Assembly (NCBI GenBank): GCA_040752575.1
Contig: JBFMGK010000003.1
Coordinates: 115,794 to 179,793, forward strand
DNA: 64,000 nucleotides
Source of the DNA: Candidatus Bipolaricaulota bacterium
Lineage (GTDB): Bacteria > Bipolaricaulota > Bipolaricaulia > UBA7950 > UBA9294
Direction: 5' to 3'
Below are positions 12,001-18,000 of this stretch, piece by piece. The position numbers are program-made. The first letter of the stretch is position 1, and the number at the start of each line of letters is the position of its first letter.

Positions 12001-15000
12001 ATCCGGCCGACAAACGCCGTCAACGCGGAACGATCGGCGAGCCGCGCGAGGGCTGCGTCGAGAGTGGGGTGAGCGAGCGGATGGGTATCGATGAATGCGC
12101 GTAAGGCCGAACCCGCGCGGTCACTACGCGACAAGACCACAAGATCCGTCGGGGTGTCGATGTCGAACTGGGTGGCGGCGTCCCTCGGCATGGCGTAGCA
12201 CGGCACGCCCGTCTCGGAGGCCGCAAAGCCGAGGGCGTTGTCCGTCGGCACGGCGGGGAGGCTTTCCAACCAAGCCGCCGAAGAGAAGGCCGCGAAGTCA
12301 CACGAGTAGTAGTTGTTGAACAGCGCGGCGGGGGTCCTGCCTCGAGCGAATGCGACAAGGCGCTCCAGCAGGTCGACGGTCAGCAACGCGCCGCTCCCGC
12401 TTCCGAAGTAAAGCACTCCGTGAGCTGCAAGCGCTGCGGTGGACCGCTTGAGCGCTTCGCCGAAGACAAACGAGTCCCCCATGTCGCTTGGGATGATCTG
12501 CACCCCAGCGGGGACAGGGCCGGATGCAGCGGGCGTCACGATGGCGATTTCCTGAACGTCGGCCTCGCGCAGGCCCGTGATCAGATCGGAGATGCCGGCC
12601 CAGCGGCCGCCAGCGACGTAGCTCTCGAGGGGCGTCCGGCCGTGCGGAGGGTGAAAGACCAACGCAGCAACGCGGCACTTCAAGCGGTGGCTGCGCCTCG
12701 ACGGCTGTGGGAAAGACGACAAGCCTCCACGGCTCGAAGGTCGAGGCCGAGGAGGCTCTCCACGCGGTAGATGGCTATCGCGTCGCCCGTCTTCGCTCAA
12801 CGGCGTACGCGCATCGCCTCCCGCTCCCCGACGTAGGGGAGAAGCGCGAGCTTGCGGGCACGGTTGATCTCGACGGCCACCCTGCGCTGGTGCTTTGCGC
12901 AGAGTCGGGTTGCCCTCTTCGGGAGGATCTTGCCAAGACGGTTCATGTACTGCTTCAATTCCTCGGGCTTCTTGTAATCGAGCGTGACGGTACCCTCGCA
13001 CGCCCGGCACTTCCGCTTTCGCTTCTGGAACATGGCCTAGAAAGGAACCTCCTCATCGGGAATCGGAGCATCGTCCATCGCCGGCGCAGGAGCCTCAACC
13101 CCGCGGGCTGCCTCGTTGCCGGCGCGTTGCGTGGGGCTTCCGAGGAACTGGACGCTCGATGCGACGACCTCGGTGTACCACTTCGTCTCTTCCGTCTCTT
13201 CGTTCTTGACCGCGGAAATCCTCAACCGGCCCTCCACAAACACCGAGCGTCCCTTGCTCAGATACTGGGCACAGTGCTCCGCTTGGCTTCCCCAGACCGT
13301 GATCGTGACAAACGTGGTTTCGTCTTTCGCCTGCCCCGTGGAGTCCTTGAAGCTTCGCCCGACGGCCAACCGGAAGCGCGTTTTCGCGGCTCCAGACGCC
13401 GAGTATTTCAACGGGTCGGGGTCGCTAGCGAGGTTTCCCAGAAGGAAGACCTTGTTGACACTTGCTGGCATCGCGTCCGATCAGCCCCGTAGAACGATCT
13501 GATAGCGCAGCAGTTCCTCGTCGATATTCAGCCGCCCTTCGAGCGTGCTGACCGATTCAGGGGGCATGCCGAACTCGGTGAACACGTAGAAACCATCCGT
13601 GTAGTGACGGATAGGATACGCCAGCACGCGCCTTCCCCAGTCTTCGGTCTTGGTCACGGTTCCGCCATTCTCCGCGATCAGGGTGTGCACCCGCTCGCTC
13701 TTGGCGGCACGCGCCTCATCGGTCAGATCCGGACGGACGATGAACACGATCTCGTAGTCTCGCACGCTCACACCTCTCAAATAGACTACGGAAAGCGTAT
13801 CCGTGCGCTCTGGGGAAGTCAAACCGCATGTCTTGGCCTGCTTGCGGCGCCGTGGGTCATGACCGCCGCCTCAGCGTCAAGTCAGCGATCCCCCCGAACC
13901 GCCATCGGTTCTAATGGAACCTATGTATTATGCAAACTTGATGGAAGTATGCTGGCGGGCTATTCTACGAGCGGTCGCCCCGCTGTGGGGCGAAGCAGGC
14001 AAGCGAAAGCCAAGGAGGCAGCCATGAAGTGGGGCGGATTCAACCGCGAGGGGGAGAAGACGATGAAGAAGCTTCTGACGAGCAAGACGGTGTTCGTGTT
14101 GATGACGCTGGCTGCAGCGGCGCTGGCGATCGGCGAGACGCTCAAGTGGAGGCCCGGCGCCTAGATCGGGGTCAGGGGGAATCATGAAGTGGGGCGGATT
14201 CAGCCGAAGGGGAGAGAGGATGATGAAGAAGCTTCTGACGGGCAAGACGGTGTTCGTGTTGATGACGCTGGCTGCAGCGGCGCTGGCGATCGGCGAGACG
14301 CTCAAGTGGAGGCCCGGCGCCTAGGCCAGGGGAACGGGGGGAGTCATGAAGTGGGGAGGATTCAACCGGGAGGGAGAGAAGAAGATGAGGAAGCTCTTTG
14401 GCGCGAGAACGATGTTTGTGTTGATGACGCTGGCTGCTGCGGCGCTGGCGATTGGCGAGACGCTCAAGTGGAGGCCCGGCGCCTAGAGCAGACCCTAGCC
14501 TACAGCAGCATGTCCAGGTAGTATCCAGGTGGCGCGGGCATGAGGTCGCGAACGGAAGCGAGGAGGTCGCGTGCGGCTCCCGATTCGGGCGGCTTTGCTG
14601 GTGGGGTTGGTTGTCCTTCTGGCACTTGCTTCCCTGAGTTGGGGAATCGTCAACGTCAGCCATCCGTCGCCTGACGACCTGATCCTCTTCTTCGTCTTCG
14701 CCGTCCTTGCCATTCTTGCCGAGGTCTACGCAACCTGGATTCCGGCCTACAAGTGGGAGATCTCCAGTTCGATCGCGATCTATCTTGCCGGGCTGTTCAT
14801 CCTCGGGCCCGATCTCGTCTTGCCACTTGTCTTTGCGTCATCGGCCGTGTCCGAGCTTCTCTTGCGTTGGGGGACTCATCGCAAAGCTTTCTCCAACGCA
14901 CTCGTGCCGATCGCCTTCAACGTCTCTCAGAGTGTCGTCGCCGTTGCAGCCGCTGGCGCGCTCATGCGGGTGCTCGAGCGCGAGTCGCTGCTCATGCGGG

Positions 15001-18000
15001 AACCTGCGGAATTCGCTCTAGCCGTTGCCGCCTTCTTGGCTTACTTTCTCCTCAACGTCAGCCTTGTCGTCGGCATTATCTCGGTCACTCAACGGCGCCC
15101 GTTCTGGCACCTCCTCGCGGAGAACCTACACGCATTCGTCGTGCAGTACGCCGTGCTCTGCGTCTCTGCCATTCTGCTCGCCGTGCTGCGTTCGCTCTCG
15201 GTCTGGCACGTGTTTCTCGCCCTCTTCCCTCTCACGCTCGTTCACATCTCGTTTCGCAGCTACCTTAAGCTGCAAACTCAGGCGAGGAATACTTTTGAGA
15301 GGATCTCCGAGCTCTTGGACGCACGAGACCACTACACCGCCGTCCACTCCGCTGAGGTCGCTGAACTCGCGCTCGCGATTGGACGTGAGCTCGGGATGTC
15401 CGAGCGGGATCTCGAGCAGGTCGATATCGCCGCGCGCGTTCACGACATCGGCAAGGTGGCCATCCCGGATGCCATCCTTCTCAAGCCCGGTCCTCTCAAC
15501 GACGCCGAATGGGGCGTGATGAAGACGCATCCCGTGATCAGCGCGCAGCTTGTTGAGGGTCTCGAGATCTACTCGAATGTCGCCGACGCAGTCCGCCACG
15601 AACATGAGCGGTGGGACGGGAGCGGCTATCCCGATGGACTGCGGGGTGAGGCGATTCCCCTTCTGTCCCGCGTGATAGCCGCTGCGGACATCTACAACGC
15701 CCTGTCGACCGATCGCCCCTATCGCCGAGCGTTCTCGCGCGAGGACGCGATGCGCATCGTTGCCGAGATGCGCGGCGTCGACATCGATCCCCGCGTCGCG
15801 GACGCTTTGCTCGCCGTGATCTCGCGTGCGCAGACGCCCGAGACGATCGCCGCGGCTCCCGCGGATTCCGGAGCATGATCTTTCTCTATGCCATCGCAGT
15901 GGGCATCACTTTCGGGTACCTTGCCGGCGGCCGCCTTCGCGGACTGGCCCTCCTACCGCTTCGCGCGTCCTGGCTCGTCCTTGTGGCTCTGGGAATCCAG
16001 TTTCTGATCTTCCCGCTGTTCGCACCCCAGCCCTTGTTCCCGTATGCGACAACTCCGCTTCACGGTCTCTCGTATGCCTTGGCGGTGGCCTGGTTGATTG
16101 TGAATCGCCGGCAATTCCCGCTGCTCGTCGTTGGACTTGGCGCCGGGCTGAATGGGTTGGCCGTCCTTGCCAACCAAGGACACATGCCCTCGTCGCCGCA
16201 CGCGCTCGAACGCGCGGGCCTCGCCACGACGGCGCGCGTCCTGGCGGATACGGGAACGTACGGAAACCTTGTTGAGATGGGGGCTGCAACGCGCCTCAAC
16301 TGGCTGGGCGATCGATTCGCCCTGCCGAGCGGGTGGCCCTTCGCCACGGCCTTTAGCGTGGGAGACCTTCTGATCGGCGTCGGACTGGCATGGCTCATCG
16401 CGCGAGGCATGAGGCGATATGGGCGGTGAACTCTCGTCTCTGTTGGCCCCCTACGGCGTTGCCGTTGTGGGCGCGGGCCCCGCTTCAGGATCTGTCGGCG
16501 GGGAGATCCTGCGTAACCTGGTGCGCTGCGGCCACAGCGGACCTCTCTACGCGGTGAACCCGAAGTACGACGAGGTCGCCGGAGTACCCTGCATGCCGTC
16601 AGTCGACAGGCTGCCTGACTTCGTGGACCTTGCCATCCTTGCCGTCCCGCGCGACGCCGTCCTCCGCATCGTAGACGCGTGCGGAGGCAGGGGAATCAGA
16701 AACCTGATCATCGTGACGGCAGGGTTCAAGGAGAGCGGCCGCGAGGGCGCCGAGCTTGAAGACGCTCTTCGGCACCTCATCGCCCGTCACCGCCTGCGCG
16801 TCATCGGGCCTAATTGCATGGGGATCCTGCGCCGCACGGGGGAAGTGCAGCTCAACGCTTCGTTCTCCCGCTGGTTCCCCGAGGGAGGCAACATCGCATT
16901 CATCTCGCAGAGCGGGTCGCTGGGCGAGACGCTCCTCGAGTGTTTCGCCGAGGCCGGTCTGGGCGTTTCGCTCTTCGTCAACCTTGGAAACCGCGCCGGT
17001 CTCACCGAAGACGACTTCCTTGCCGAACTCGCTGACGACCCATCGTGCGGTGCCGTGTTCCTGTACTTGGAGAGCTTTGCCAACCCGGCGGCGTTCCGCC
17101 GCCTCGTCGAAGACATGGCTCCCCGCAAACCCGTGGTCGTCCTCAAGGCCGGGCGCACCGAAGCGGGCGCGGCAGCCGTTGCGTCGCACACAGGATCGTT
17201 GGCGAGTTCAGATGCGATCGTCGACGCCTTTCTTCGCCAGTCGGGCGCGCTGCGTGTGACGACTGTTCAGGAGACCCTGACGGCACTTCGTGCATTGGAG
17301 CGGCGCGTGCTCCCGAAGGGGCGCCGGACGCTCGTCCTCACGAACGCCGGCGGTGCAGGCATCCTTGCCGCGGACGCCTGCGAACGTGCCGGCCTCGACG
17401 TCCCGCGGCTCTCCGAGGACGTGCAAGACGCGTTGCGCAGCGTCCTTGTTCCCGAGGCAGGAACTGGAAACCCGGTGGACCTGCTGGCGACGGCGGGAGC
17501 CCGGGCGTACGAAGCGGCGATCGACATCGGGCTGCGCGAAGCGGACGCGGCGGTCGTCATCTTCCGCCCACCCCTCGTTCTGCCCGATCCGCCCGTGGCG
17601 GTGGCCGACGCGGTGATCTCAGCGGCTTCTCGGTGGCCTGACAAGCCTGTTGTCGTGAGCACTCTGAGCGAGCAATCTACCGAGATCACAGAACGATTCC
17701 ACGCCGCTCGGCTCCCGGTCTTTGCGATGCCCGAGACGGCCGTCGAAGCGCTGTCTGTCCTCGCTCGCGCCTCGCTCGTTCAGAAGCGACAGACCGAAGA
17801 CGTACCGGTCTCCTACTCCGTGGCAACCGCGCAGCGCGTCATCCGCGATGCTCGGCGGGAAACCCGCATCGGGCTGACGTTCTCCGAAGGAGCCACCCTG
17901 TTGTCGGCGTATGGGATCGGTGTCTGCGCGAGTCGGTACGTGGGGGCCGCCGAGGACCTACGTGCGGCGGTCGCCGGGATGCGGTTTCCCCTGGCGGCGA

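What a model noticed while it worked through the whole genome (the two positions that open the first line are those of the whole stretch)
14024..16429. Tandem array of 46-aa membrane peptide genes hard-wired upstream of a polytopic HD-GYP phosphodiesterase
Three near-identical 46-aa genes (g00160-g00162; MKWGGF.. - one TM helix - ..E[TS]LKWRPG) stand head-to-tail directly upstream of a membrane-embedded HD-GYP protein (g00163) and a DUF5317 membrane protein (g00164). I read the peptides as dosage-tunable membrane ligands or regulators of the HD-GYP c-di-GMP phosphodiesterase, a peptide input into c-di-GMP signalling. New would be a family of micro-proteins whose copy number (1-5) varies between close relatives while their ends are invariant.
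Evidence so far: Copies 85-89% identical, each with its own RBS, spaced 160-162 nt. No Pfam/NCBIfam/Swiss-Prot row (PADLOC and PHROGs not run on them). Six-frame search: matches in 19 of 31 genomes of the order sampled, 1-5 tandem copies per locus. In 4 of 5 relatives' loci fetched the array is followed by the g00163 orthologue (E 1e-122 to 6e-201) and in 5 of 5 preceded divergently by rpsF. Alignment of 11 copies from 6 genomes: 16 invariant positions incl. M1 K2 W3, R8 G10 E11, E38 K41 W42 R43 P44 G45, hydrophobic core variable. g00163: ~230-aa polytopic N-terminal part + HD_5/HD.
(Added by a program. Inside this text positions count along the whole contig: contig position 115,794 is position 1 of the stretch shown here. 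"Call 12" and the like, gene names such as g00115 and contig names such as C1 are that model's own, and its searches are not shown. The text may have been shortened before it was handed on; [...] marks where a part breaks off. The agent that wrote the report below was given it as the finding of a first reader that could run no searches.)

Follow-up and report, generated by a model that had tools for sequence, protein, structure and literature searches.

The report
Tandem micro-protein genes before c-di-GMP sensor
Three near-identical genes for a 46-residue membrane mini-protein sit directly in front of a membrane enzyme that degrades the bacterial messenger c-di-GMP, a pairing kept across several bacterial phyla, which makes the mini-protein a candidate for the enzyme's unknown input signal.

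Summary
Three tandem 46-codon genes (14024-14486, +) stand before a MASE9-type membrane HD-GYP phosphodiesterase and a DUF5317 protein, in a Candidatus Bipolaricaulota genome. The genes are real: all 90 copies tested start with ATG and 84 have a Shine-Dalgarno core, median dN/dS is 0.34, and indels are in frame. Topology is inferred as N-in/C-out.

Phylum-wide, the peptide is found in 113 of 184 genomes and the HD-GYP orthologue in 136. Of the 113, 110 also have the HD-GYP. Divergent copies turn up in 10 of 11 apparent exceptions.

Outside the phylum (Chloroflexota, Atribacterota, Limnochordaceae and others), 20 of 24 DUF5317 loci have an HD-GYP gene directly upstream. Eight of 12 loci with upstream sequence carry a similar small one-helix ORF. 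This scan noted the same module before on other DNA.

New here are the conserved N-terminal head (MKWGG...) and tandem amplification to 1-6 copies. In some relatives DUF5317 is fused to a PAS-GAF-GGDEF cyclase.

Most likely the peptide is a membrane partner or input of this c-di-GMP module. A bolder lead is that DUF5317 is LspA-like and the peptide is its lipobox-like ligand or substrate; that support is weak. Function and expression are untested.

The parts
13481..13822 (-). rpsF (ribosomal protein S6), divergent neighbour. The true start is probably downstream of the listed TTG.
   Evidence: Pfam Ribosomal_S6 3.3e-29, residues 23-110. Divergent rpsF-ssb-rpsR lies upstream of the array in 30 of 38 related loci; 6 of the other 8 have no upstream sequence. 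It is absent within the 6 kb upstream held in 4 of 5 loci from more distant families.
13823..14023 (.). Intergenic region between rpsF and peptide gene 1; presumed divergent promoter region.
   Evidence: No sigma-70-like consensus found. One hairpin plus T-run at 13907-13921 (+). No Rfam family, in particular no c-di-GMP riboswitch, at E<=1 in 13400-14800.
14024..14164 (+). Micro-protein gene, copy 1 (46 aa): basic N-terminal head MKWGGF.., one hydrophobic helix, C-terminal ..ETLKWRPGA.
   Evidence: AGGAGG lies 7 nt before the ATG.
14184..14324 (+). Micro-protein gene, copy 2 (46 aa).
   Evidence: 89% identical to copy 1. 19-nt spacer.
14346..14486 (+). Micro-protein gene, copy 3 (46 aa).
   Evidence: 85% identical to copy 1. 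21-nt spacer.
14487..14570 (+). 84-nt spacer to the HD-GYP gene, with GAGGAGG before the GTG start and no terminator.
   Evidence: No terminator-like site. The fold is no more stable than shuffles, z +1.84.
14571..15878 (+). Membrane HD-GYP c-di-GMP phosphodiesterase: divergent MASE9 domain (about residues 1-235) plus an HD-GYP domain with intact HD and HHExxDGxGYP motifs.
   Evidence: HD_5 1.1e-37. MASE9 PF20972 scores 10.8 bits in this protein but 24.8-25.9 bits (cut-off 24.3) in orthologues over the same coordinates. Motifs were read and are invariant in 39 orthologues. It is the only one of 5 HD_5 genes in the genome with this membrane domain.
15875..16429 (+). DUF5317 membrane protein, overlapping the HD-GYP stop by 4 nt. 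Five helices plus an approximately 60-residue outer-face segment that carries the family-invariant D146, S161, G163 and D164.
   Evidence: PF17248 6.2e-28. AF2 model pLDDT 90.2. Invariants. It is the only copy in the genome.
16419..18554 (+). ADP-forming acyl-CoA synthetase, overlapping the DUF5317 stop by 11 nt. An operon neighbour in the window's own family only.
   Evidence: Pfam and NCBIfam. Present after DUF5317 in 28 of 38 related loci. Not found within the sequence held in any of the 5 loci from distant families, one of which ends soon after the peptide.

Best explanation
The three ORFs are real genes for a bitopic membrane micro-protein. It has a basic, conserved head in the cytoplasm, one helix, and a short tail with an invariant Lys-Trp on the outside.

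They are the Bipolaricaulota form of a micro-protein that stands directly 5' of a MASE9-HD-GYP phosphodiesterase gene, and usually a DUF5317 gene, in several phyla. The Bipolaricaulota form is N-terminally extended and tandemly amplified.

The array is most likely co-transcribed with the phosphodiesterase. In the membrane the peptide most likely acts as partner or input of the module's sensor domains: MASE9, for which an intramembrane ligand site has been proposed, and/or DUF5317. In that way it would tune c-di-GMP hydrolysis. The number of gene copies would set the peptide dose.

Shown: coding status, conservation, synteny, and the domain identities.
Inferred: topology, co-transcription, any physical contact, and the direction of the effect.
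For: Coding:
- All 90 copies with the HMM start begin with ATG. 84 of the 90 have GGAG/GAGG/AGGA at -18..-4, against 16% of random positions.
- Median dN/dS is 0.34 over 359 pairs. Differences by codon position 1/2/3 are 5295/3387/6604.
- A 4-aa in-frame indel separates paralogue types.
- No Rfam match.

Topology: median 7 K+R on the N side of the helix against 2 on the C side.

Linkage within the window's own lineage:
- HD-GYP follows the array in 30 of 38 related loci. Seven of the other 8 end at a contig end.
- DUF5317 follows in 29 of the 29 loci that reach that far.

Linkage across the phylum:
- Peptide in 113 of 184 genomes, MASE9 domain in 136 of 184, both in 110, peptide only in 3 (overlap counted by hand from the tables).
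- I fetched upstream regions for 15 of the 26 'MASE9-only' genomes. Eleven had at least 400 nt upstream, and 10 of those hold a divergent MKW..helix..KW ORF.
- In 5 loci from distant families the peptide still abuts the HD-GYP, while rpsF is absent in 4 and the synthetase in all 5.

Linkage outside the phylum:
- 20 of 24 DUF5317 loci have an HD-GYP gene directly upstream.
- 8 of 12 loci with upstream sequence have a 29-41-aa one-helix ORF ending in a small-residue patch, then K/R, then W/F. A ninth matches in part.

Operon structure:
- Spacers are 15-40 nt in most arrays.
- There is no terminator before the HD-GYP gene.

c-di-GMP context:
- The genome has 7 GGDEF matches.
- DUF5317 is fused to PAS-GAF-GGDEF in 3 of 3 long forms checked in this phylum, and to GGDEF in 2 of 23 long representatives.
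- Galperin and Chou propose that MASE9 binds its ligand within the membrane (bioRxiv 10.1101/2021.11.05.467447, passages read).
Against: - No expression or protein data exist for any member.
- Contact with MASE9 or DUF5317 is inferred from gene order only.
- The Bipolaricaulota peptide HMM does not detect the other phyla's micro-ORFs at E<=0.1. The cross-phylum likeness is therefore one of architecture and motif, not demonstrated homology.
- Known small membrane regulators such as MgrB are single-copy. Tandem amplification with strong ribosome-binding sites fits a consumed or stoichiometric product better than a catalytic regulator.
- The strongly conserved cytoplasmic head (MKWGG[FY]..) has no assigned role.
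- In some genera DUF5317 lies on another contig although the HD-GYP contig continues (for example G053 and G042). The trio is therefore not obligatory.
- Related genomes are not independent samples.
Confidence: 0.5

Rival explanations
1. Processed-signal model. The peptide is a cargo-less signal-peptide look-alike with a basic n-region, a hydrophobic h-region and a small-residue c-region: L-L-[AGS] in this family and L/I-A-G-G in other phyla, that is, a lipobox without the Cys. DUF5317 is a distant LspA-like intramembrane aspartyl enzyme that binds or cuts it at the outer face. This releases or presents a short Lys-Trp oligopeptide, which the MASE9 sensor reads. Gene copies supply a consumed substrate.
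For: - Peptidase_A8 is the most frequent non-self Pfam family among DUF5317 members: 6 of 21 (best E 0.052) and 6 of 51 (best E 0.51).
- hhalign of two DUF5317 profiles against LspA of this class aligns the same segment. It puts DUF5317 N131, D146 and D164 on LspA's conserved Asn and on both Asp of the VxDF and FNxAD motifs.
- Those two Asp are the catalytic dyad (Asp118/Asp136 in S. aureus LspA; PMC6952399, passages read; mapped onto alignment A7 by the 14 conserved residues).
- D146 and D164 are invariant in 51 diverse DUF5317 proteins.
- VIA-align finds LspA 6ryp_A at Z 5.5, 89 residues, rmsd 2.5 A (identity of the entry).
- By the positive-inside rule, read from the sequence and the model, DUF5317's conserved polar residues lie on the outer face, as does the peptide's KW tail.
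- Position counts before KW: L43 / L47 / A23 G19 S6 / E35 A17. In other phyla the motif is L/I-A-G-G-A.
- DUF5317 is fused to MFS transporters in 12 of 23 long representatives.
Against: - hhalign probability is only 0.9-1.4% (E 0.064 and 0.038).
- All Pfam hits are far below the cut-off.
- Z 5.5 is within the range the tool calls common for helical models, and 39 rows rank above it.
- Foldseek did not list LspA.
- Only 3 of LspA's 14 conserved residues align.
- The lipobox Cys is absent.
- In the window's own genus the -1/+1 residues (S|E, G|E) are poor for known signal peptidases.
- A domain fused N-terminally to PAS-GAF-GGDEF looks more like a sensor than a protease.
- The conserved cytoplasmic head is unexplained by a mere signal peptide.
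Confidence: 0.2
2. Co-transcribed but functionally separate. An abundant small membrane protein, for example a stabiliser, assembly factor or subunit for membrane proteins, or a membrane-property modulator. Its gene merely shares a promoter with the HD-GYP operon, and its copy number reflects a need for bulk amounts.
For: - Tandem identical copies, each with a strong SD, are typical of bulk products.
- The position next to a ribosomal-protein operon in the window's family.
- No evidence of binding.
Against: - The peptide stays next to the MASE9-HD-GYP gene when every other neighbour changes.
- Similar micro-ORFs precede the same gene in other phyla.
- Outside the window's family it is mostly single-copy.
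- The genome's other four HD_5 genes have none.
Confidence: 0.15
3. Leader peptides or upstream ORFs whose translation controls expression of the HD-GYP operon.
For: Position directly 5' of the operon, with no terminator in between.
Against: - Purifying selection acts over the whole peptide, including a helix and both ends.
- No attenuator-like structure lies in the 84-nt spacer.
- Strong SD sites.
- The amino-acid motif is conserved across phyla despite unrelated DNA.
Confidence: 0.05
4. Type-I-toxin-like membrane peptides in tandem.
For: Small size, one hydrophobic helix, tandem copies.
Against: - Phylum-wide vertical synteny at one locus.
- Spacers of 15-40 nt leave no room for antitoxin RNA genes.
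- Strong, unsequestered SD sites.
- Polycistronic with signalling genes.
- No PADLOC hit beyond chance.
Confidence: 0.03

Closest known systems
MgrB (47 aa) and SafA (65 aa), small membrane proteins that bind and control the sensor kinase PhoQ (review PMC8534201, passages read)
   Same: Under 70 aa, a single helix, and action (here proposed) by helix-helix and short-tail contacts with a membrane sensor. In MgrB a Trp is the key residue for complex formation.
   Different: No sequence relation. The target here would be a c-di-GMP phosphodiesterase or DUF5317, not a histidine kinase. The genes are fixed directly 5' of the sensor's own gene rather than elsewhere in a regulon. They are amplified in tandem. 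Binding is not shown.
MASE9-HD-GYP proteins (T. maritima TM1467; S. venezuelae HdgA), Galperin and Chou, bioRxiv 10.1101/2021.11.05.467447 (passages read); Al-Bassam et al. 2018, PMC6205966 (passages read)
   Same: The same architecture as g00163: a polytopic N-terminal domain plus HD-GYP. Its ligand is unknown and proposed to bind within the membrane.
   Different: Neither paper mentions a micro-ORF or DUF5317 next to these genes (0 occurrences of 'DUF5317' and 'small protein' in the first). The window's protein matches the MASE9 model only below the cut-off.
The micro-protein / MASE9 c-di-GMP enzyme / DUF5317 module noted earlier by this scan in Actinomycetota, Chloroflexota and others (AI notes)
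   Same: The same three-gene logic. I found it independently, before reading those notes.
   Different: - The peptides here are longer (44-53 aa against about 24-43).
- They carry a conserved cytoplasmic head MKWGG[FY].
- They are amplified to 1-6 tandem copies.
- No c-di-GMP riboswitch precedes them, unlike two of the noted Chloroflexota cases.
Lipoprotein signal peptidase LspA and lipoprotein signal peptides (PMC6952399)
   Same: - Two Asp about 18 residues apart at the outer membrane face, in DUF5317 as in LspA.
- The peptide has n-, h- and small-residue c-regions with Leu at -3.
   Different: Statistical support for homology is lacking. There is no Cys at +1 and almost no mature part after the putative site. 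See the membership test.
Peptide pheromones cut from short precursors: Bacillus Phr pentapeptides and enterococcal pheromones from lipoprotein signal peptides (recalled, no call)
   Same: A precursor of about 40 aa that is mostly signal sequence, with the active part being a few residues.
   Different: No exporter, Opp-type importer or Rap/PrgX-type receptor lies nearby. Processing is not shown. The receptor here would be a membrane c-di-GMP enzyme.

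Membership tests
HD-GYP c-di-GMP phosphodiesterase (g00163) | HD_5/HD domain with the HD and HHExxDGxGYP motifs | tested here: met
   HD_5 1.1e-37. Motifs read in the translation. H291, D292, H345, E346, G350, G352, Y353 and P354 are invariant in 39 orthologues.
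MASE9 membrane sensor domain (PF20972) | Match to the Pfam model above the gathering score | tested here: inconclusive
   The window protein scores 10.8 bits against a cut-off of 24.3. Orthologues P0029, P0055 and P0087 score 24.8-25.9 bits over the same residues, 38-225.
MASE9 membrane sensor domain (PF20972) | About 8 hydrophobic segments before the HD-GYP domain | tested here: inconclusive
   Eight hydrophobic stretches were read by eye in residues 1-230 of the translation. No predictor was run.
DUF5317 (PF17248) (g00164) | Pfam match above the cut-off | tested here: met
   98.1 bits against a cut-off of 25.
Signal peptidase II / Peptidase_A8 (for DUF5317) | Pfam PF01252 match above the cut-off | tested here: not met
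   No hit for the window protein. Only 6 of 21 and 6 of 51 relatives hit, at E 0.052 or worse.
Signal peptidase II / Peptidase_A8 (for DUF5317) | Catalytic Asp dyad at the outer face | tested here: inconclusive
   hhalign places the invariant D146 and D164 on the dyad positions, but at probability 0.9-1.4%.
Signal peptidase II / Peptidase_A8 (for DUF5317) | The 14 conserved LspA residues | tested here: not met
   Only the Asn and the two Asp align. The D, K, N, G of the N-terminal half and the D-R of GNxxDR have no counterpart.
Signal peptidase II / Peptidase_A8 (for DUF5317) | Shared fold | tested here: inconclusive
   6ryp_A at Z 5.5, 89 residues aligned, rmsd 2.5 A, rank 40. Not among Foldseek's 151 chains.
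Bacterial lipoprotein signal peptide (for the peptide) | Lipobox with Cys at +1 | tested here: not met
   No Cys in the three window peptides. Cys occurs at the -4 position in only 4 of 55 copies, and not in a lipobox context.
Type I toxin-antitoxin | Patchy or mobile distribution, with its own antisense RNA gene per copy | tested here: not met
   Fixed locus across the phylum. Spacers of 15-40 nt. An antisense RNA itself is not testable here.
MgrB/SafA-type small membrane regulators | Small bitopic protein that binds a membrane sensor | not testable with these tools
   Size and a single helix are met. Binding needs an experiment.
RiPP or exported pheromone precursor | Adjacent maturase and exporter genes | tested here: not met
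   Genes within 4-27 kb of the window are housekeeping. Only DUF5317 is of unknown role.
c-di-GMP-riboswitch-led operon (as in earlier notes from other phyla) | GEMM-type riboswitch 5' of the peptide gene | tested here: not met
   No Rfam match at E<=1 in 13400-14800.
Cross-phylum micro-protein / MASE9 enzyme / DUF5317 module | One-helix micro-ORF directly 5' of the MASE9 enzyme gene, DUF5317 gene adjacent, and a peptide C-end with a small-residue patch, then K/R, then W/F | tested here: met
   Window. Other phyla.

The most novel reading that the evidence does not exclude
DUF5317 is an LspA-derived intramembrane aspartyl enzyme or receptor, and the micro-proteins are cargo-less signal-peptide mimics with a Cys-less lipobox made for it. 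Binding or cleavage at the outer face releases or presents a Lys-Trp oligopeptide. That oligopeptide switches the MASE9 phosphodiesterase and, in relatives, the DUF5317-fused diguanylate cyclase. This would be a self-contained peptide-to-c-di-GMP pathway, spread over many phyla, whose signal dose Bipolaricaulota tune by tandem gene amplification.
Probability: 0.15. Interest if true: 0.9.

Novelty: new variant of a known kind. Interest (0 to 1): 0.7.

Why it matters
MASE-type membrane domains are among the commonest input domains of c-di-GMP enzymes, and no signal is known for most of them. A genetically hard-wired micro-protein partner gives MASE9 (and DUF5317) a concrete candidate input that can be tested.

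The Bipolaricaulota version adds two handles:
- Two conserved ends on opposite sides of the membrane.
- Natural copy-number variation.

If the LspA-like reading of DUF5317 holds, a large family of unknown function (4927 cluster representatives) would gain a mechanism. No paper in the searched library names DUF5317. No paper links Bipolaricaulota with HD-GYP. MASE9 appears in only two papers. A search for small membrane proteins together with c-di-GMP phosphodiesterases listed eight papers, none on this by title or abstract (listing only).

Tried and rejected
- **Complex prediction.** Peptide alignment plus residues 1-240 of the HD-GYP protein scored 0.01 against a mark of 0.32. The tool gave no verdict. 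This is neither for nor against binding.
- **Sequencing runs.** No RNA holder was listed. There was one DNA holder with a 0.22 share of words, and I did not lay reads. Expression is therefore untested.
- **Fold of DUF5317.**
  - Foldseek against PDB gave nothing at E<=0.001.
  - The VIA second look over Foldseek's 151 chains gave no Z>=5 apart from two-helix matches.
  - The profile search of PDB sequences gave only chance-level SDR rows.
- **ESM Atlas for the peptide.** Best scores 0.85-0.87 to unnamed clusters, below the level the tool calls informative.
- **Fused forms of the peptide.** Only 3 longer proteins were found (102-154 aa), probably over-extended gene calls. None was fused to MASE9. 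This is weak evidence.
- **Reaching DUF5317 loci outside the phylum.**
  - Alignment A6 reached only Bipolaricaulota.
  - A single distant representative worked.
- **Signal peptidase I reading** (small residues at -3 and -1). Rejected as a general rule, because position -3 is Leu in most copies.
- **Antisense ORFs over the array.** They vary in length between loci and were judged incidental in GC-rich DNA.
- **Earlier notes by place and by sequence.** Nothing found.

Full report
**1. What is in the sequence**

Three ORFs of 46 codons lie head to tail at 14024-14164, 14184-14324 and 14346-14486 on the + strand.
- Copies 2 and 3 are 89% and 85% identical to copy 1.
- Tandem Repeats Finder reports one array with period 160, 2.9 copies and 88% matches.
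- The spacers are 19 and 21 nt, and each start is preceded by a purine-rich SD-like stretch.

The flanking genes are:
- After an 84-nt spacer, a 435-aa polytopic protein with HD_5 (1.1e-37) and HD domains at 14571-15878.
- Overlapping it by 4 nt, a DUF5317 protein at 15875-16429.
- Overlapping that by 11 nt, an ADP-forming acyl-CoA synthetase.
- Upstream and divergent, rpsF, ssb and rpsR.

The peptides match no Pfam, NCBIfam or PHROGs model. In PADLOC there is only a chance-level row, KwaA at E 0.061. The genome holds no further copy. Record titles of related loci name the organism group as Candidatus Bipolaricaulota (Acetothermia).

**2. They are genes**

I took loci from related genomes and examined the copies.
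- All 90 copies that align from the first HMM position start with ATG.
- 84 of the 90 have GGAG, GAGG or AGGA at -18 to -4, against 16% of 7783 random positions in the same loci.
- Between 29 loci, pooled pS is 0.53 and pN is 0.23. Median dN/dS is 0.34 over 359 unsaturated pairs.
- Differences by codon position 1/2/3 are 5295/3387/6604.
- A 4-residue in-frame insertion after position 15 separates a long and a short paralogue type.
- No Rfam family matches 13400-14800 at E<=1.
- Open frames on the opposite strand vary in length from locus to locus and are taken as incidental.

In 55 distinct full-length copies only M1, W3, K41 and W42 are invariant. The consensus is MKWGGYNRxGEExMKKLF.GK, then a helix, then LLL[AGS][EA][SN][IVL]KW[RHS][PG]. 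The side before the helix carries a median of 7 Lys+Arg and the side after it 2. By the positive-inside rule the head is therefore cytoplasmic and the KW tail is outside. This is inferred.

**3. The neighbours**

*The HD-GYP protein.*
- Its membrane part is a divergent MASE9 domain. The window protein scores 10.8 bits on PF20972 (cut-off 24.3). Three orthologues score 24.8-25.9 bits over the same residues.
- Its HD and HHExxDGxGYP motifs are intact and are invariant in 39 orthologues.
- The genome has 7 GGDEF matches and 5 HD_5 genes. Only this HD_5 gene has the MASE9 domain.
- Galperin and Chou defined MASE9 and suggested that its ligand binds within the membrane (bioRxiv 10.1101/2021.11.05.467447, passages read). 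Their text does not mention DUF5317 or small proteins.

*DUF5317.*
- It folds with high confidence (pLDDT 90.2) into five helices and an approximately 60-residue segment between helices 4 and 5.
- By its Arg-rich loops that segment lies outside (inference).
- G89, N93, P105, L144, D146, S161, G163 and D164 are invariant in 51 diverse members.
- The family is large: 4927 cluster representatives at E<=0.001.
- Of 23 long representatives scanned, 12 are DUF5317-MFS fusions and 2 carry GGDEF: P0245 is DUF5317-PAS-GAF-GGDEF and P0365 is DUF5317-MFS-PAS-GGDEF.
- In three Bipolaricaulota genomes of another family (G122, G097, G112), the gene just after the MASE9-HD-GYP gene is itself a 922-1177-aa DUF5317-PAS-GAF-GGDEF protein.

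DUF5317 is thus a membrane input module of c-di-GMP enzymes.

**4. The linkage**

*Window's own lineage.* In 38 loci found with the peptide pattern:
- The HD-GYP gene follows the array in 30.
- Seven of the other eight end at a contig end within or just after the array.
- The eighth (L041) is a solo copy in another context.
- DUF5317 follows in 29 of the 29 loci that reach that far, and the synthetase in 28.
- rpsF lies divergently upstream in 30.

*Across the phylum.*
- The peptide profile hits 113 of 184 genomes, the MASE9 profile 136 and DUF5317 155.
- Counted by hand from the tables, 110 genomes have peptide and MASE9, 3 have the peptide only (G038, G105, G138) and 26 have MASE9 only.
- I fetched the upstream region in 15 of those 26. 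Eleven had at least 400 nt upstream.
- Ten of the eleven hold a divergent member, such as a 36-aa MKWGEK..helix..HHKWG form. The eleventh has a small one-helix ORF ending GAGWTGG.

*Distant families.* In five loci from distant families the peptide still abuts the HD-GYP gene. rpsF is missing within 6 kb in four of them and the synthetase in all five.

*Exceptions.* In some genera (for example G053 and G042) DUF5317 lies on another contig although the HD-GYP contig continues. The most constant neighbour of the peptide is therefore the HD-GYP gene.

*A caveat on these counts.* Related genomes are not independent, and adjacent genes are assembled or lost together in fragmented MAGs.

**5. Outside the phylum**

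One distant DUF5317 representative retrieved 24 loci, from Limnochordaceae, Actinomycetes, Chloroflexota, Atribacterota, Limnocylindrales and others.
- An HD-GYP gene lies directly upstream on the same strand in 20 of them. It matches the MASE9 profile of this phylum in 10.
- Of 12 loci with sequence upstream of that gene, 8 carry a 29-41-aa ORF 56-110 nt before it. These ORFs have a short basic start, one helix and an end of the form [LI]-A-G-G-A-x-[KR]-x-[WF], or LLGANYTW. A ninth matches in part.
- The Bipolaricaulota peptide HMM does not detect them. The likeness is therefore one of architecture and motif.

After this I looked up the scan's earlier notes. Eight notes describe the same micro-protein / MASE9 enzyme / DUF5317 unit on other DNA, two of them behind a c-di-GMP riboswitch. 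So the scan has found this module before. The window has no such riboswitch.

The only members touched by experiment are S. venezuelae HdgA and HdgB. They are membrane-bound, and their deletion gives no developmental phenotype (PMC6205966, passages read).

**6. What is special here**

- *A conserved cytoplasmic head.* MKWGG[FY] plus a charged stretch. The other phyla's versions lack it.
- *Tandem amplification.* There are 1 to 6 copies, and 1 to 5 within the window's genus. These are lower bounds, because arrays often break contigs.
- *Similarity within arrays.* Within arrays DNA identity is a median 0.92 (45 same-length pairs). The best match between loci is a median 0.75 (139 locus pairs). 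This means recent duplication or gene conversion.
- *Older paralogue types.* Long and short paralogue types persist across genera, so part of the array is older.
- *Odd array members.* Some have another N-terminus or a degenerate C-terminus.

**7. How it most likely works**

The array has no terminator-like site inside it or before the HD-GYP gene. The spacer does not fold better than shuffles. One transcript is therefore likely; this is inferred.

The simplest reading is that the peptide is a membrane partner or input of the sensor domains of this module. It would control c-di-GMP hydrolysis, with gene copy number setting its dose. The closest working analogues are MgrB and SafA with PhoQ (PMC8534201, passages read). 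I put this at about 0.5.

**8. The bolder lead: DUF5317 as LspA-like**

For:
- Peptidase_A8 (LspA) is the most frequent non-self Pfam family among DUF5317 members: 6 of 21 (best E 0.052) and 6 of 51 (best E 0.51).
- Profile-profile alignment against LspA of this class aligns the same C-terminal segment twice. It puts N131, D146 and D164 on LspA's conserved Asn and on the two Asp of VxDF and FNxAD.
- Those two Asp are the catalytic dyad, which lies towards the outer membrane surface (Asp118 and Asp136 in S. aureus LspA; PMC6952399, passages read).
- A wide structural search lists LspA 6ryp_A at Z 5.5, with 89 residues at 2.5 A.
- The peptides end their helix with Leu at -3 and a small residue at -1. 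In other phyla the motif is L/I-A-G-G. This resembles the lipobox L-A-G-C without the Cys.

Against:
- hhalign probability is 0.9-1.4%.
- All Pfam hits are far below the cut-off.
- Z 5.5 is within the range the tool calls common.
- Foldseek does not list LspA.
- Only 3 of 14 conserved LspA residues align.

I keep it as a rival at about 0.2. Its full form is the novel case, at 0.15.

**9. Other rivals**

- *A bulk membrane protein only sharing the promoter* (0.15). The constancy of the pairing speaks against it.
- *Leader peptides* (0.05). Selection on the whole protein speaks against it.
- *Type I toxins* (0.03). Fixed synteny, 15-40-nt spacers and strong SD sites speak against it.

**10. Limits**

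There are no expression data and no verdict from complex prediction. There are no supplements that bear on this, and I opened none. The cross-phylum sample is 24 loci from one query.

Noticed in passing
L191 75-2885 (+), L192 409-3939 (-), L193 58-2823 (+): In three Bipolaricaulota genomes of another family, the gene after the MASE9-HD-GYP gene is a 922-1177-aa DUF5317-PAS-GAF-GGDEF protein. The locus thus pairs a c-di-GMP breaker with a maker, both with membrane input domains.
   Followed up: yes
Proteins P0297, P0313, P0318, P0320, P0323, P0334, P0341, P0342, P0361, P0365, P0378 (and others): Many DUF5317 proteins are fused to MFS_1/MFS_3 transporters (12 of 23 long representatives). One is fused to TPR and one to SPOR. 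The meaning is unknown.
   Followed up: partly
L041 2965-3099 (contig of 3604 nt, genome G013): A solo copy of the peptide gene lies away from rpsF and HD-GYP, followed by an ORF that looks to me like a transposase fragment. That is my reading of the translation; no family search was run. It may be a dispersed copy or an assembly chimera.
   Followed up: partly
L060 5861-5962 and 6201-6302; L069 5852-5947 and 6355-6450; L048 1220-1315; L050 6415-6513: Some array members keep the helix and KW tail but have an unrelated Arg-rich N-terminus. The last member of some arrays has a shortened helix and a changed C-end. These are variants or decaying copies.
   Followed up: no
L081 6222-7529 and 7657-8952: One genome (G182) has two tandem MASE9-HD-GYP paralogues between a single peptide gene and DUF5317.
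   Followed up: no
L094 555-1145, 1350-1511, 1548-1700: In genome G129 the order is a DUF5317-like ORF, then a small one-helix ORF ending GAGWTGG, then a MASE9-HD-GYP. This is a rearranged and divergent form of the module.
   Followed up: partly
window 8371-11553 (-): One 1061-aa open frame carries both a serine hydroxymethyltransferase domain (87-425) and an aminomethyltransferase GCV_T domain (663-936). It is either a glyA-gcvT fusion or two genes in one frame.
   Followed up: no
window 13907-13921 (+): A hairpin followed by a T-rich run lies in the rpsF-array intergenic region, upstream of peptide gene 1. Its role is unknown.
   Followed up: no
several arrays in L015, L020, L021, L023, L088, L093 and others: Parts of many arrays read as N (withheld or masked stretches). 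Copy numbers from those loci are therefore lower bounds.
   Followed up: no
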